The notes beneath the pieces were generated by a model. That model was not told where the DNA came from, searched no databases, and worked only from the letters and a program-made list of their open reading frames with translations. A DNA stretch of 4,815 nt from a virus (Duplodnaviria > Heunggongvirae > Uroviricota > Caudoviricetes). Position 1 is the first letter of the stretch; every line of letters begins with the position of its first letter. Shown here piece after piece: positions 93 through 581 of the stretch. A program made the position numbers and the translations under genes. Location of the stretch: the IMG/VR virus record IMGVR_UViG_2681813229_000016. One strand, 5' to 3'.

Positions 93-243
93 ATCCCCCT
101 CACCCCACCAGCCATGACAAAGTTAAGACGCGCCAGGCAGTGGAAAAGCAAATAGCAACCAGCATTAGTGAAAATGAAATGCCGACGATTACACAGAGGA
201 TCTTCGCCAGCGTTATGAGCTTGTCTGACATGCTTAATCCTCT

Positions 244-426
244 TCACGATTTCAACGCAATGACCAGTTTTGCCAGCCCATACAGCATCGGAGACACAGC
301 AATACCGACCGCCACCCACTTAATAGCAAAAGCCAGCGCTCTGCTGACGTCATCAGTTACAGGTGCTTTCAGTTCAAGGCCGTTTTTCATAGTCAATCTC
401 AACAGAATTCGTTTATACTTTCCCAT
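244..426 (-). CDS. Hypothetical small protein (60 aa) with C-terminal hydrophobic segment
   Basis: ATG at 426..424 preceded by AAGGGAGAAC (strong SD). Product MGKYKRILLRLTMKNGLELKAPVTDDVSRALAFAIKWVAVGIAVSPMLYGLAKLVIALKS. Lies just downstream of the terminator hairpin and upstream of Rz. No family recognised; overlapped by other-frame and opposite-strand ORFs, so coding status is unproven. Confidence 0.3.
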   Translation of the reverse strand: MGKYKRILLRLTMKNGLELKAPVTDDVSRALAFAIKWVAVGIAVSPMLYGLAKLVIALKS

Positions 427-459
427 GTTCTCCCTTGCCTTACTCAAGGTCAGAAACAC

Positions 460-492
460 AAAACCCCGTTTGCGGCCAACAAACGGGGTTTT
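460..492. terminator. Bidirectional rho-independent terminator (perfect 13-bp stem, 7-nt loop)
   Basis: AAAACCCCGTTTG (460..472) pairs perfectly with CAAACGGGGTTTT (480..492), loop CGGCCAA. On the plus strand the stem is followed by ACTTTTATT; on the minus strand it ends in UUUU followed by GUGUUUCUG. It lies about 90 nt downstream of the endolysin stop. Confidence 0.6.
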
Positions 493-581
493 ACTTTTAT
501 TCACTTAGTTTTTGCCAGTTCGCAGGATTTCGTGTTATCCGCCAGTGTGAGCAAACCGCATTTTTCAGCAAAATATTCTGC

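What the first reader, a model, noticed from the sequence alone, without database searches (positions are those of the whole stretch)
93..581. Unassigned ~490-bp segment between endolysin and Rz with a perfect bidirectional terminator and a small SD-equipped ORF
In lambda-type lysis cassettes R is normally followed directly by Rz/Rz1. Here R and Rz are separated by ~490 bp holding a strong palindromic terminator (460..492) and, immediately after it on the minus strand, a 60-codon ORF (426..244) with a strong SD and a C-terminal hydrophobic segment. A further ~150 bp before Rz has no confident assignment. The terminator would uncouple Rz/Rz1 expression from R unless the polymerase is antiterminated. 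The segment could be a remnant of a larger insert (some related prophages carry an ant-like gene here) or a small cargo gene; the ORF track also shows competing frames (140..508 +, 89..319 -), so the coding strand is unresolved.
Basis: seen in the sequence. Interest (0 to 1): 0.5.

Follow-up and report, generated by a model that had tools for sequence, protein, structure and literature searches.

The report
Two small lysis-cassette membrane genes
The "unassigned" DNA between a prophage's cell-wall-cutting enzyme gene and its outer-membrane-disrupting gene holds a conserved transcription stop signal followed by two real but uncharacterised genes for tiny membrane proteins, and one of them recurs at this same spot in otherwise unrelated phage lysis cassettes.

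Summary
R stops at 582 and Rz starts at 92. A perfect 13-bp hairpin with T-runs on both strands lies at 460-492. A 60-codon ORF with a Shine-Dalgarno site lies at 426-244 on the minus strand.

The rest of the segment is not empty. It holds a second gene, B (231-100, minus strand, 43 aa, one transmembrane helix). B's stop codon overlaps the ribosome-binding site of Rz. Both genes are on the lysis strand. They are ECs_2740 and ECs_5740 of Sakai prophage Sp14, in phrog_1115 and phrog_4906, both of unknown function.

The segment is not a remnant of the ant insert. It is one allele of a mosaic slot: shared flank, then hairpin plus cargo, then B, then Rz.

Gene A always travels with its own upstream hairpin, and the stem shows compensatory changes. 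In 9 of 12 distant loci it lies between an endolysin gene (several families) and an i-spanin gene. It also has a conserved internal start (Met13 behind GAGG).

Most likely both are late genes read through the terminator by Q-modified polymerase, and both are accessory inner-membrane lysis factors. Function is inferred, not shown. A conserved antisense promoter-like site facing the hairpin suggests a cis-antisense RNA, which is untested.

The parts
582..1115 (-). Endolysin R (177 aa, N-terminal SAR-like hydrophobic segment). Left boundary of the slot, context only.
   Evidence: ORF list. Pfam Phage_lysozyme 1.5e-24. RefSeq 'lysozyme' in the identical locus L001.
493..581 (-). Conserved non-coding 3' flank of R. 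It is shared by all cargo types of this R lineage.
   Evidence: The first 133-154 nt of the interval match H-19B and many Stx phages at up to 97.8%. The first 93 nt are shared with the Ant-type interval of Sakai Sp10. No ORF, Rfam hit or minus-strand promoter was found here.
460..492 (.). Hairpin H1. It has the shape of a bidirectional intrinsic terminator: A-tract, 9 G/C-rich pairs extended to 13 by A-U pairs, 7-nt loop, T-tract.
   Evidence: Present in 65 of 80 loci anchored on R, with a different hairpin H2 at the same place in 12 more. It accompanies every A-family gene found, in unrelated contexts, with compensatory stem changes: 6 of 12 pairs in RNAalifold.
430..449 (-). Leader of gene A. 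A small stem CCTTG(449-445)/CAAGG(437-433) overlaps the Shine-Dalgarno sequence AAGGGAG (436-430).
   Evidence: Fold. The same CCTTG-N7-CAAGG+GGGAG arrangement is kept in Salmonella-type modules that have a different H1 sequence. A role in translation control is inferred only.
244..426 (-). Gene A, 60 aa (equals ECs_2740, WP_001303555.1, phrog_1115). It has a basic N-terminal extension (residues 1-12), a core starting at Met13 (ATG 390-388; GAGA 400-397 here, GAGG in most relatives), and a long C-terminal hydrophobic helix.
   Evidence: phrog_1115 6.6e-42. 118 homologues. Core pN/pS 0.20 with 0 of 17 variants carrying a stop. AlphaFold2 gives helix 3-14 plus helix 23-59. Best 19-aa Kyte-Doolittle window 1.90. 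Dual-start features.
100..231 (-). Gene B, 43 aa (equals ECs_5740, WP_001280929.1, phrog_4906). Single transmembrane helix. Its SD GAGGA (242-238) lies just after A's stop TGA (246-244). Its own stop TGA (102-100) lies inside the Rz SD GAGGGGG (101-95).
   Evidence: phrog_4906 7.3e-24. 85 homologues with the single sequence and 251 with a profile. All 29 unique DNA variants have the same length and none carries a stop. tblastn finds it in 276 phage records, mostly Stx phages and mostly unannotated. AlphaFold2 gives one helix 2-42, pLDDT 90. Kyte-Doolittle 2.86.
1..92 (-). Start of i-spanin gene Rz (ATG 92-90), cut by the window edge. Right boundary of the slot.
   Evidence: N-terminus identical to the 'lysis protein'/Rz of L001. 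Junction sequence.
390..419 (+). Antisense sigma-70 promoter-like site (TAGTCA, 18 nt, TATACT) inside codons 3-13 of gene A, pointing at hairpin H1. It would give a cis-antisense RNA of about 72 nt (roughly 425 to 497) covering A's start codon and SD. Hypothetical.
   Evidence: It is one of only two promoter-like sites in the whole window. It is kept at the same position in 35 of 37 unique A modules and improves to 10 of 12 matches in distant ones. The background rate is one site per 2286 nt. No transcript evidence exists, and there is no Hfq-bound sRNA here in Sakai.

Best explanation
The segment is a compact accessory module of the prophage lysis operon, all on the minus strand. Its order is: conserved 3' flank of R, an intrinsic terminator hairpin, gene A (60 aa, with a shorter 48-aa form likely made from Met13), gene B (43 aa), then Rz.

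Shown:
- Both genes are real protein-coding genes for single-helix hydrophobic proteins.
- The hairpin is structurally conserved and belongs to the A module.
- The three genes are packed so that each ribosome-binding site touches or overlaps the preceding stop codon.

Inferred:
- No sense-strand promoter lies between the hairpin and gene A. A, B and Rz would therefore be made only when Q-modified RNA polymerase from the late promoter reads through the hairpin. In a lysogen the hairpin would stop stray transcription from both directions.
- The proteins insert in the inner membrane with the N-terminus in the cytoplasm.
- They act there as accessory lysis factors that tune the timing or action of the pinholin/SAR-endolysin step or of the Rz/Rz1 spanin. 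The long and short forms of A would play opposing roles, as in dual-start holin/antiholin pairs.
For: Identity and coding:
- RefSeq annotates both ORFs in identical DNA. They are ECs_2740 and ECs_5740 in Sakai Sp14.
- PHROG hits are 6.6e-42 and 7.3e-24.
- The A core has pN/pS 0.20 and variable sites 11/11/33 by codon position.
- No stop occurs in 17 A and 29 B variants.
- B's length is fixed although its C-terminus diverges.
- In Ant-type loci, B's extended start overlaps the ant stop.

Membrane nature: Kyte-Doolittle 1.90 and 2.86, and AlphaFold2 helices.

Operon logic:
- A's stop and B's ATG are 12 nt apart, and B's stop and the Rz ATG are 7 nt apart.
- No minus-strand promoter-like site lies in 1-1300.

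Link to lysis:
- In a sample anchored on R, at least 65 of the 68 loci that run from R to Rz carry one or more of these small ORFs. The rest is one locus with none of the tested motifs and up to two Ant-B loci, since B was not shown for every ant locus.
- 77 of the 80 loci have a hairpin after R.
- A degenerate DNA search for the A core found 12 distant loci. Nine place A between an endolysin gene and an i-spanin gene. The endolysins were PF00959 (two divergent versions), GH108+PG_binding_3, GH19 and one unassigned. The i-spanins were PF03245, DUF2514 and one unassigned.
- In 7 of those 9, A ends ...RWW with its stop 1-5 nt before the i-spanin ATG. In the other two it ends ...ALKS (L219) or only a GTG/TTG start is nearby (L228).

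Hairpin: 6 of 12 stem pairs show both-sided compensatory change across contexts.

Dual start: an in-frame upstream start is always present. The Arg10 codon is the rare AGG in 11 of 12 variants, which creates GAGG six nt before the Met13 ATG. The extension shows synonymous changes.
Against: - No functional or expression data exist for either protein in the searched literature.
- Neither protein hits any Pfam, NCBIfam or PADLOC family, including the holin families.
- A-family genes also occur outside lysis cassettes. Examples are after tail-fibre assembly genes, between the gpV spike and gpW genes, and before a tail assembly chaperone gene. A strictly lysis-specific role is therefore not required.
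- The same slot also carries unrelated cargo (ant, dam, IS), as a general insertion site would.
- K-12 Qin has R overlapping Rz with no insert, so the genes are dispensable for the basic cassette.
- In this window the holin gene itself is broken, so the cassette is probably not functional here.
- Terminator activity and read-through are inferred from sequence alone.
Confidence: 0.5

Rival explanations
1. Antisense-controlled toxic peptide, a type I toxin-antitoxin-like module. The hairpin is chiefly the terminator of a short cis-antisense RNA. That RNA starts from a promoter inside the first 12 codons of gene A (-35 at 390-395, -10 at 414-419, + strand) and is complementary to A's start codon and Shine-Dalgarno site. 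It would keep the membrane peptide silent in the lysogen. This can coexist with a lysis role.
For: - The promoter-like site is one of only two in 4815 bp and lies 40 nt upstream of the hairpin on the correct strand.
- It is kept at the same position in 35 of 37 unique modules. In distant relatives, amino-acid-changing substitutions raise the match: TATACT to TATAAT, and TAGTCA to TAGACA.
- The hairpin travels with gene A, not with the upstream gene, in every context.
- The A-tract 5' of the stem, needed only for antisense-direction termination, is kept in all 12 variants.
- From my own knowledge, the architecture resembles SymR/symE.
Against: - The hexamers lie in conserved codons (K/N-Y-K, L-T-M), so their conservation may be protein-level only.
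- The -35 match is weak (4 of 6) and the spacer is 18 nt.
- No Rfam family was found.
- No Hfq-bound sRNA is listed at this site of Sakai Sp14 in Tree et al. 2014 Table S2.
- No separate sense promoter for the 'toxin' exists.
- Toxicity is untested.
Confidence: 0.25
2. Generic morons unrelated to lysis. A and B are small membrane proteins that serve the phage or lysogen in another way, such as superinfection exclusion or modulation of a host membrane protein. They sit between R and Rz only because that junction tolerates insertions.
For: - The slot is highly mosaic and also holds ant, dam and IS elements.
- A-family genes occur in tail-gene clusters.
- Tandem paralogues and rapid turnover (A, A', D, C in one slot) are typical of accessory genes under conflict-driven selection.
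Against: - There is no sense promoter for lysogenic expression, and the terminator lies upstream rather than downstream of the genes. This is the reverse of the classical moron layout.
- A was captured at the endolysin/i-spanin junction in cassettes with unrelated endolysins and spanins, with translational coupling to the spanin gene.
- No PADLOC hit.
Confidence: 0.2
3. Decayed remnant of a larger insert such as the ant gene, with no functional small gene.
For: Related prophages carry a 189-aa Ant-like gene in the same slot.
Against: - tblastn of Ant against window 1-700 finds nothing.
- Only the R flank (93 nt) and gene B (132 nt) are shared with the Ant-type interval.
- Gene A is under purifying selection and intact in all 17 core variants collected.
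- Matches covering at least 80% of the segment are present in 990 of 5426 complete E. coli genomes.
Confidence: 0.02
4. The real gene is on the plus strand (ORF 140-508, 122 aa), or in the other minus frame (89-319).
For: - ORF 140-508(+) is open.
- The corresponding antisense frame stays open in nearly all homologues (no stop in 16 of 17 A-core and 29 of 29 B variants). Its pN/pS is 0.32 and 0.57, close to the sense frame.
Against: - In that frame, stops can arise only opposite sense Tyr, His or Gln codons, which these hydrophobic proteins almost lack. The frame is open by composition.
- It runs through the hairpin, the A-B spacer and both ribosome-binding sites.
- It has no PHROG, Pfam or NCBIfam hit.
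- Its boundaries ignore the modular units that recombine.
- The partial phrog_3246 match of 89-319(-) is explained by chimeric ORF calls in B-A' arrangements.
Confidence: 0.02

Closest known systems
Dual-start holin/antiholin pairs of lambdoid phages (lambda S105/S107; phage 21 S68/S71)
   Same: - A small membrane protein encoded in the lysis cassette.
- Two in-frame starts a few codons apart, each with its own ribosome-binding site.
- The longer form carries extra positive charge at the N-terminus.
- An RNA stem overlaps the first ribosome-binding site, comparable to lambda's sdi structure.
These comparisons rest on my own knowledge of those systems.
   Different: - A has one C-terminal helix and a cytoplasmic N-terminus, not 2-3 transmembrane domains.
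- The extension is 11-15 residues with about +4 charge, not 2-3 residues.
- A lies after the endolysin gene and is coupled to Rz, not at the head of the cassette.
- It has no sequence similarity to any Pfam holin family. The cassette has its own S21-type holin gene.
- Hole formation or inhibition is untested.
Type I toxin-antitoxin loci with a 5'-overlapping antisense RNA (for example symE/SymR)
   Same: - A hydrophobic peptide of at most 60 aa.
- A candidate antisense promoter embedded in the first codons.
- An antisense RNA that would cover the start codon and SD and end at a strong terminator.
   Different: - No dedicated sense promoter or long structured toxin 5' UTR.
- The gene is embedded in, and translationally coupled within, a phage late operon.
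- No antisense transcript or toxicity has been shown.
- No similarity to known toxin families.
Lambdoid 'morons' (lambda bor and lom, HK97 gp15)
   Same: - A small accessory gene with an intrinsic terminator, inserted between two late genes.
- Mosaic distribution, and the same slot used by different cargo.
- The concept is cited in PMC4104026.
   Different: - Classical morons have their own promoter upstream and the terminator downstream, and are expressed from the prophage.
- Here the terminator is upstream, no sense promoter is seen, and the genes are coupled to Rz.
Accessory lysis-cassette membrane proteins of other phages (P1 LydB/LydC/LydD; Mu gp25 'releasin')
   Same: Additional small membrane proteins encoded beside a SAR endolysin that modulate its release or the holin (PMC9025707 and PMC9239132, listed).
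   Different: - No sequence relationship.
- Different size and topology.
- The A family also occurs with non-SAR endolysins (GH108, GH19), so a SAR-specific role is unlikely.

Membership tests
Intrinsic (Rho-independent) terminator | G+C-rich stem-loop followed directly by a U-tract on the transcribed strand | tested here: met
   13-pair perfect stem with a 7-nt loop. Minus-strand tail TTTTGTGTTTCT (counting the stem's own Ts) and plus-strand tail TTTTACTTTTAT.
Intrinsic (Rho-independent) terminator | Structure conserved by compensatory change in relatives | tested here: met
   RNAalifold on 12 variants from different contexts: 6 of 12 pairs have both-sided changes that keep the pair. A different hairpin (H2) occupies the same place in Ant-type loci.
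Intrinsic (Rho-independent) terminator | Transcript 3' ends at the U-tract in vivo, and read-through by Q-modified polymerase | not testable with these tools
   No Term-seq table was available. The supplement of PMC7547250 is not held.
Bidirectional terminator | A-tract 5' and T-tract 3' of the stem, with transcription converging on it from both sides | tested here: inconclusive
   The A- and T-tracts are present and conserved. The only candidate converging transcription unit is the untested antisense promoter-like site at 390-419(+).
PHROG phrog_1115 (gene A) and phrog_4906 (gene B) | Significant full-length match to the family HMM | tested here: met
   6.6e-42 over residues 1-60 and 7.3e-24 over residues 1-43. 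Both families are labelled 'unknown function'.
Holin / antiholin | Membrane protein encoded in a lysis cassette with at least one transmembrane domain | tested here: met
   Position between R and Rz, with hydrophobic helices.
Holin / antiholin | Dual-start motif giving two products | tested here: inconclusive
   Gene A has an upstream in-frame start plus Met13 behind GAGG in 11 of 12 variants. Translation from both starts has not been demonstrated. In this window the motif is the weaker GAGA.
Holin / antiholin | Sequence membership in a described holin family | tested here: not met
   No Pfam, NCBIfam or PHROG 'lysis' hit for A or B. The cassette's own holin is the S21-type gene at 1515-1703.
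Holin / antiholin | Lethal, timed membrane permeabilisation or its inhibition | not testable with these tools
   This needs induction and lysis-curve experiments.
Type I toxin-antitoxin | Small hydrophobic peptide (<60 aa) with one transmembrane helix | tested here: met
   A is 60 or 48 aa and B is 43 aa.
Type I toxin-antitoxin | Antisense RNA gene with its own promoter and terminator overlapping the toxin mRNA | tested here: inconclusive
   A promoter-like site plus terminator in the right geometry is conserved. No transcript evidence exists, and no Rfam or Hfq-CRAC signal was found.
Type I toxin-antitoxin | Independent toxin promoter, and toxicity on overexpression | tested here: not met
   No minus-strand promoter-like site lies in 1-1300. 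Toxicity is not testable here.
Moron (Juhala/Hendrix sense) | Own promoter upstream and terminator downstream of the inserted gene | tested here: not met
   The terminator is upstream, no sense promoter is present, and the downstream end is coupled to Rz.
Spanin (Rz/Rz1 or u-spanin) | Periplasmic coiled-coil domain (i-spanin), or lipobox with a Pro-rich periplasmic domain (o- or u-spanin) | tested here: not met
   A and B have at most about 11 residues beyond the helix and no lipobox. Rz itself starts at 92.
Ant/KilAC antirepressor remnant | Residual similarity to the Ant gene of sister prophages | tested here: not met
   No tblastn hit (E <= 10) of Sakai Sp10 Ant in window 1-700.

The most novel reading that the evidence does not exclude
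Hairpin plus gene A is a self-contained mobile unit. It combines a cis-antisense small RNA gene (promoter in A's first codons, terminator equal to the hairpin) with a dual-start, tail-anchored membrane peptide. The unit has repeatedly settled at the endolysin/i-spanin junction and acts as a previously unrecognised regulator of the last steps of Gram-negative phage lysis, for example an anti-spanin or a trans-acting antiholin. Gene B would be a second, unrelated peptide of the same functional class that is common in Shiga-toxin phages.
Probability: 0.15. Interest if true: 0.75.

Novelty: new variant of a known kind. Interest (0 to 1): 0.5.

Why it matters
Lysis cassettes of lambdoid and Shiga-toxin phages are usually described as S, R and Rz/Rz1 only. 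A survey of 279 Stx phages (PMC8136144) describes them that way.

In a sample anchored on R, at least 65 of the 68 loci that run from R to Rz carry one to four small membrane-protein genes plus a terminator between R and Rz. Gene B alone is in 276 deposited phage genomes, mostly Stx phages and mostly unannotated.

If these peptides tune lysis timing or spanin action, they would affect the timing and amount of Shiga toxin and phage release. They would also add a new component to a pathway thought to be complete.

If the antisense-RNA reading is right, this would, to my knowledge, be the first toxin-antitoxin-like control element found inside a lysis cassette.

Even on the most conservative reading, the result fixes the annotation. 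It gives two real genes, one structured terminator and the coding strand. It also defines a recombination slot useful for typing Stx prophages.

Tried and rejected
- **Known RNA families.** Rfam at E <= 1 finds nothing in 93-581. In Salmonella-type loci there are only sub-threshold antisense 'rimP leader' hits over the hairpin (36 bits against a gathering score of 47). I treat these as terminator look-alikes.
- **Known protein families.** Pfam, NCBIfam and PADLOC give nothing for A or B. A profile search of 1.8 billion representatives finds only 24 relatives of A and no link to any named family. I made no fold search, because single helices give meaningless matches.
- **A and B as paralogues.** hhalign probability is 2.5%. 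For A against the C' peptide it is only 14.7%, confined to the transmembrane region.
- **Ant remnant.** Rejected.
- **Plus-strand ORF 140-508.** pN/pS cannot separate it from the sense frame. I rejected it on composition, boundaries and lack of homologues.
- **EHEC Hfq-bound sRNAs.** I tested whether EcOnc10, 11 or 12 of Tree et al. 2014 map to the hairpin. They lie downstream of Rz, next to ECs_1967 and ECs_2255, not between R and Rz. No EcOnc lies in the Sp14 R-Rz interval.
- **GTDB genome scans.** The scan for family A failed at tblastn confirmation. A degenerate DNA pattern gave only chance hits in Clostridia.
- **Literature.** Searches by accession, locus tag and topic found no paper on these ORFs.
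- **Weak minus-strand terminator-like site at 348-332, inside gene A.** Six pairs. I did not follow it up and regard it as chance.
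Full report
**1. What the window is**

All genes run on the minus strand and form the late region of a lambdoid, Stx-phage-like E. coli prophage. In order they are:
- a DUF3927 ORF
- an STnc100-type sRNA region
- the SASA/NanS-p esterase (2387-4324)
- two small ORFs
- an S21-type class II holin gene
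- YdfR/DUF1327 (1166-1510)
- a lysozyme R (582-1115)
- the first 92 nt of Rz

The segment 93-581 is 100% identical to E. coli strain 7784 and 99.8% identical to many O157:H7 genomes. Some match is present in 1873 of 5426 complete E. coli genomes, and 990 of them cover at least 80% of it. In strain Sakai it lies in prophage Sp14.

**2. Check of the observation**

R ends at 582 and Rz starts at 92, which leaves 489 nt. The hairpin at 460-492 has 13 perfect pairs and a 7-nt loop, with T-rich tails on both strands. It has the longest stem of the terminator-like sites in the window. The window holds 11 such sites, against 4.9 +/- 2.4 in shuffles. ORF 426-244(-) has AAGGGAG ending 3 nt before its ATG and a hydrophobic C-terminus. 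The description is therefore correct.

It has GAGGA upstream of its ATG, and its stop codon lies inside the Rz ribosome-binding site. RefSeq annotates both ORFs as hypothetical proteins WP_001303555.1 and WP_001280929.1. In Sakai they are ECs_2740 and ECs_5740.

**3. Coding strand**

Gene A matches phrog_1115 (6.6e-42) and gene B matches phrog_4906 (7.3e-24). The plus-strand ORF 140-508 matches nothing.

I analysed the A core across 17 unique DNA variants, including Salmonella copies:
- Variable sites are 11/11/33 by codon position.
- pN/pS is 0.20.
- No variant has a stop.

Gene B has no stop in any of its 29 unique variants and a fixed length of 43 codons, although its C-terminus diverges. 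Its pN/pS is 0.56.

One antisense frame also stays open, with pN/pS 0.32 and 0.57. In that register, stops can arise only opposite sense Tyr, His or Gln codons, which these hydrophobic proteins almost lack. It is open by composition, which explains ORF 140-508(+).

Four further points favour the lysis strand:
- Each gene has its own SD and start.
- The units that recombine between prophages end exactly at the minus-strand ORF boundaries.
- In Ant-type loci, B's extended start overlaps the ant stop codon.
- Both products are clean transmembrane helices, whereas the antisense product has no such feature.

ORF 89-319(-) matches only half of phrog_3246. That family reflects chimeric ORF calls in loci where B is followed by a 5'-truncated A copy.

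**4. The R-Rz interval is a mosaic slot**

I collected 120 IMG/VR loci with a 24-nt anchor from the R flank. I then collected 80 loci anchored on the R protein. In the second set:
- 65 have hairpin H1.
- 12 have a different hairpin H2 (GGCACCGTAATGGTGCC) at the same place.
- One has no hairpin motif but does have cargo.
- One has Rz directly after R.
- One was unreadable.

The cargo architectures among the 68 loci that run from R to Rz were as follows:

| Architecture | Loci |
|---|---|
| C alone | 17 |
| C-B-A'-D | 16 |
| A-B (this window's type) | 17 |
| Ant-B | about 10 |
| C-B | 3 |
| D | 3 |
| A-D | 1 |
| None of the tested motifs (one 1631-nt interval) | 1 |

A', D and C are further small transmembrane peptides. 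D is a short A-family member. C resembles A only weakly, in the transmembrane region. Rare alleles add a Dam-like methylase or an IS element.

Compared with the Ant-type interval of Sakai Sp10, the window shares only its first 93 nt and its last 132 nt (gene B). There is no trace of ant. The segment is therefore an alternative cassette, not a remnant. K-12 Qin has R overlapping Rz with no insert, so the module is accessory.

**5. Gene A and its hairpin form one unit found in many lysis cassettes**

The family is small. A profile search of 1.8 billion representative proteins found 24 members. The sources name E. coli, E. marmotae and Salmonella for most close homologues, with one Pseudomonas-labelled record. 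Its conserved core starts at Met13: MKNGLE-x-(D/K)AP...AFAI(K/R), then a hydrophobic helix.

A degenerate DNA search for the core found 12 distant IMG/VR loci. In nine of them the gene lies between an endolysin gene and an i-spanin gene that has an embedded Rz1-like ORF:
- The endolysins belong to PF00959 (two divergent versions), GH108+PG_binding_3, GH19 and one unassigned type.
- The i-spanins belong to PF03245, DUF2514 and one unassigned type.
- In seven of the nine, the peptide ends ...RWW with its stop 1-5 nt before the i-spanin ATG (TGGTGGTGAnATG). In the other two it ends ...ALKS (L219) or only a GTG/TTG start is nearby (L228).

The other three loci, and two Salmonella relatives, place the gene in tail-gene clusters.

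In every one of these contexts, and whatever gene lies upstream, the A gene is preceded by an A-tract/GC-stem/T-tract hairpin. The stem sequence differs between contexts, but pairing is kept: 6 of 12 pairs show both-sided changes. The hairpin therefore belongs to the A module and is under structural selection.

**6. Features of gene A**

An in-frame upstream start lies 11-15 codons before Met13 in all 12 unique upstream variants. The Arg codon three positions before Met13 is the rare AGG in 11 of the 12, and AGA in this window. AGG creates GAGG six nt before the Met13 ATG. The extension (K/N-Y-K-R-I-L-L-R-L-T) shows synonymous variation and conservative replacements, so it is translated. Two products, 60 and 48 aa, are therefore likely.

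A small stem (CCTTG-N7-CAAGG) overlaps the first ribosome-binding site and is kept in Salmonella-type modules.

AlphaFold2 gives a short N-terminal helix (3-14) and one long helix (23-59), with mean pLDDT 69.5. For B it gives a single helix (2-42) with pLDDT 90.

**7. How it most likely works**

Shown:
- Two genuine small membrane-protein genes.
- A structurally conserved terminator-shaped hairpin.
- Tight gene packing into Rz.

Inferred:
- No sense promoter lies after the hairpin. Expression of A, B and Rz should therefore depend on read-through by Q-modified polymerase from the late promoter. This follows established lambdoid biology. A Q gene lies upstream in Sp14.
- A recurs at the endolysin/i-spanin junction in cassettes with unrelated enzymes, is coupled to the spanin gene, and has a dual-start layout. 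On that basis I favour an accessory role in the membrane phase of lysis, either in timing or in spanin control.

This functional claim is weakened in three ways. A-family genes also occur in tail-gene contexts. The slot tolerates unrelated cargo. No experimental data exist: no paper mentions these ORFs, and a survey of Stx-phage lysis cassettes lists only S, R and Rz/Rz1 (PMC8136144).

**8. The antisense alternative**

The window has only two sigma-70 promoter-like sites. One of them (TAGTCA-18-TATACT, 390-419, + strand) points at the hairpin from 40 nt away. It would produce an RNA of about 72 nt that is complementary to A's start codon and SD and ends at the hairpin.

The site is kept at the same position in 35 of 37 unique modules. 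It improves to 10 of 12 matches in distant relatives, through changes that alter the protein. The background rate is one site per 2286 nt. The conserved A-tract 5' of the stem is needed only for termination in that direction.

Against this, the hexamers lie in conserved codons. No Rfam family matches. Tree et al. 2014 list no Hfq-bound RNA at this place in Sp14. I rate this reading at about 0.25. It is compatible with a lysis role.

**9. Comparison with known systems and novelty**

The module works most like a dual-start holin/antiholin gene or another accessory lysis protein, but it is not a member of any described holin family. It resembles a type I toxin-antitoxin locus in geometry only. 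It departs from the classical moron layout. It is not a spanin and not an Ant remnant (see the membership table).

The ORFs are already in databases as hypothetical proteins, so the genes themselves are not new. The following seem undescribed in the literature I searched:
- the recurrent hairpin-plus-peptide unit at the endolysin/spanin junction
- its dual-start layout
- the candidate antisense promoter
- the near-universal presence of small transmembrane peptides between R and Rz in this phage group

**10. Verdict**

I rate interest as moderate (0.5). It is a well-supported, uncharacterised accessory module of a medically relevant lysis cassette, with specific, testable mechanistic hypotheses.

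Noticed in passing
window 1515-1721 (-): The S21-type holin gene is broken. Compared with the 68-aa holin of L001 ([33 protein letters not shown]...), the window lacks about 56 nt that encode TMD1. This leaves a frameshifted 35-aa ORF (1567-1674) and a C-terminal fragment (1515-1703). The prophage of this window is probably lysis-defective.
   Followed up: partly
window 4465-4631 (-): Strong Rfam match to sRNA STnc100 (101.6 bits, E 4e-22). This is the region described as STnc100/EcOnc27 immediately downstream of stx2B in Stx phages (PMC12711010). This window has no stx genes.
   Followed up: partly
window 4373-4438: A very strong minus-strand terminator-like hairpin (GGCTGCGCATGGCGCGGCC followed by 8 Ts, 4437-4419), with a weak + strand 'asX2' Rfam hit. 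It lies just upstream of the esterase gene. This is where Tree et al. 2014 describe convergent anti-sRNAs (AsxR/AgvB class), and a 2026 preprint places PasD there. I did not test for homology.
   Followed up: no
window 1750-2386 (-): Two small ORFs lie between the esterase and holin genes. One is 2057-2239, 60 aa, with an N-terminal hydrophobic helix. The other is an acidic ORF of about 89 aa from the ATG at 2019 to 1750. The Pas sRNA preprint (10.64898/2026.05.13.724894) places pasA/pasC in this intergenic zone. In strain 7784 and Sakai Sp14 an IS1203/IS629 element is inserted here.
   Followed up: no
window 1166-1510 (-): A YdfR/DUF1327 gene (114 aa, Pfam 1.1e-44) sits between the holin and endolysin genes. 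It is another conserved lysis-cassette gene of unknown function in this phage group.
   Followed up: no
L133 3001-3201; L135 2856-3168; L136 165-528; L221, L224, L225: A-family genes also occur outside lysis cassettes. They sit next to tail-fibre assembly, gpV/gpW baseplate and tail-chaperone genes, sometimes as tandem pairs (47+55 aa, 64+55 aa). Where the upstream sequence was read, a terminator-shaped hairpin again precedes them (L133, L221, L224, L225).
   Followed up: partly
L130 2833-2974, L219 3197-3338, L220 1935-2077 (antisense strand): Sub-threshold Rfam hits to the rimP leader (32-36 bits against a gathering score of 47) fall on the antisense strand. They cover the hairpin region upstream of A-family genes in three Salmonella-type loci. 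They are probably terminator look-alikes.
   Followed up: no
Sakai NC_002695.2 1946819-1946867 (L229) and 2234239-2234287 (L230): The very abundant Hfq-bound RNAs EcOnc11 and EcOnc10 of Tree et al. 2014 map just downstream of Rz. They are on the same strand as, and at or 3' of, the small YlcI/YnfO-like gene (ECs_1967, ECs_2255), and antisense to the late operon. This part of the late region lies outside the window.
   Followed up: partly
L130 / L219 leader (e.g. L219 ~3310-3365): In Salmonella-type modules the leader carries a 26-nt insertion. It forms an 8-codon mini-ORF (MCREVYSL) whose stop overlaps the GTG start of gene A (GTGA). This suggests a leader peptide or translational coupling.
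   Followed up: no
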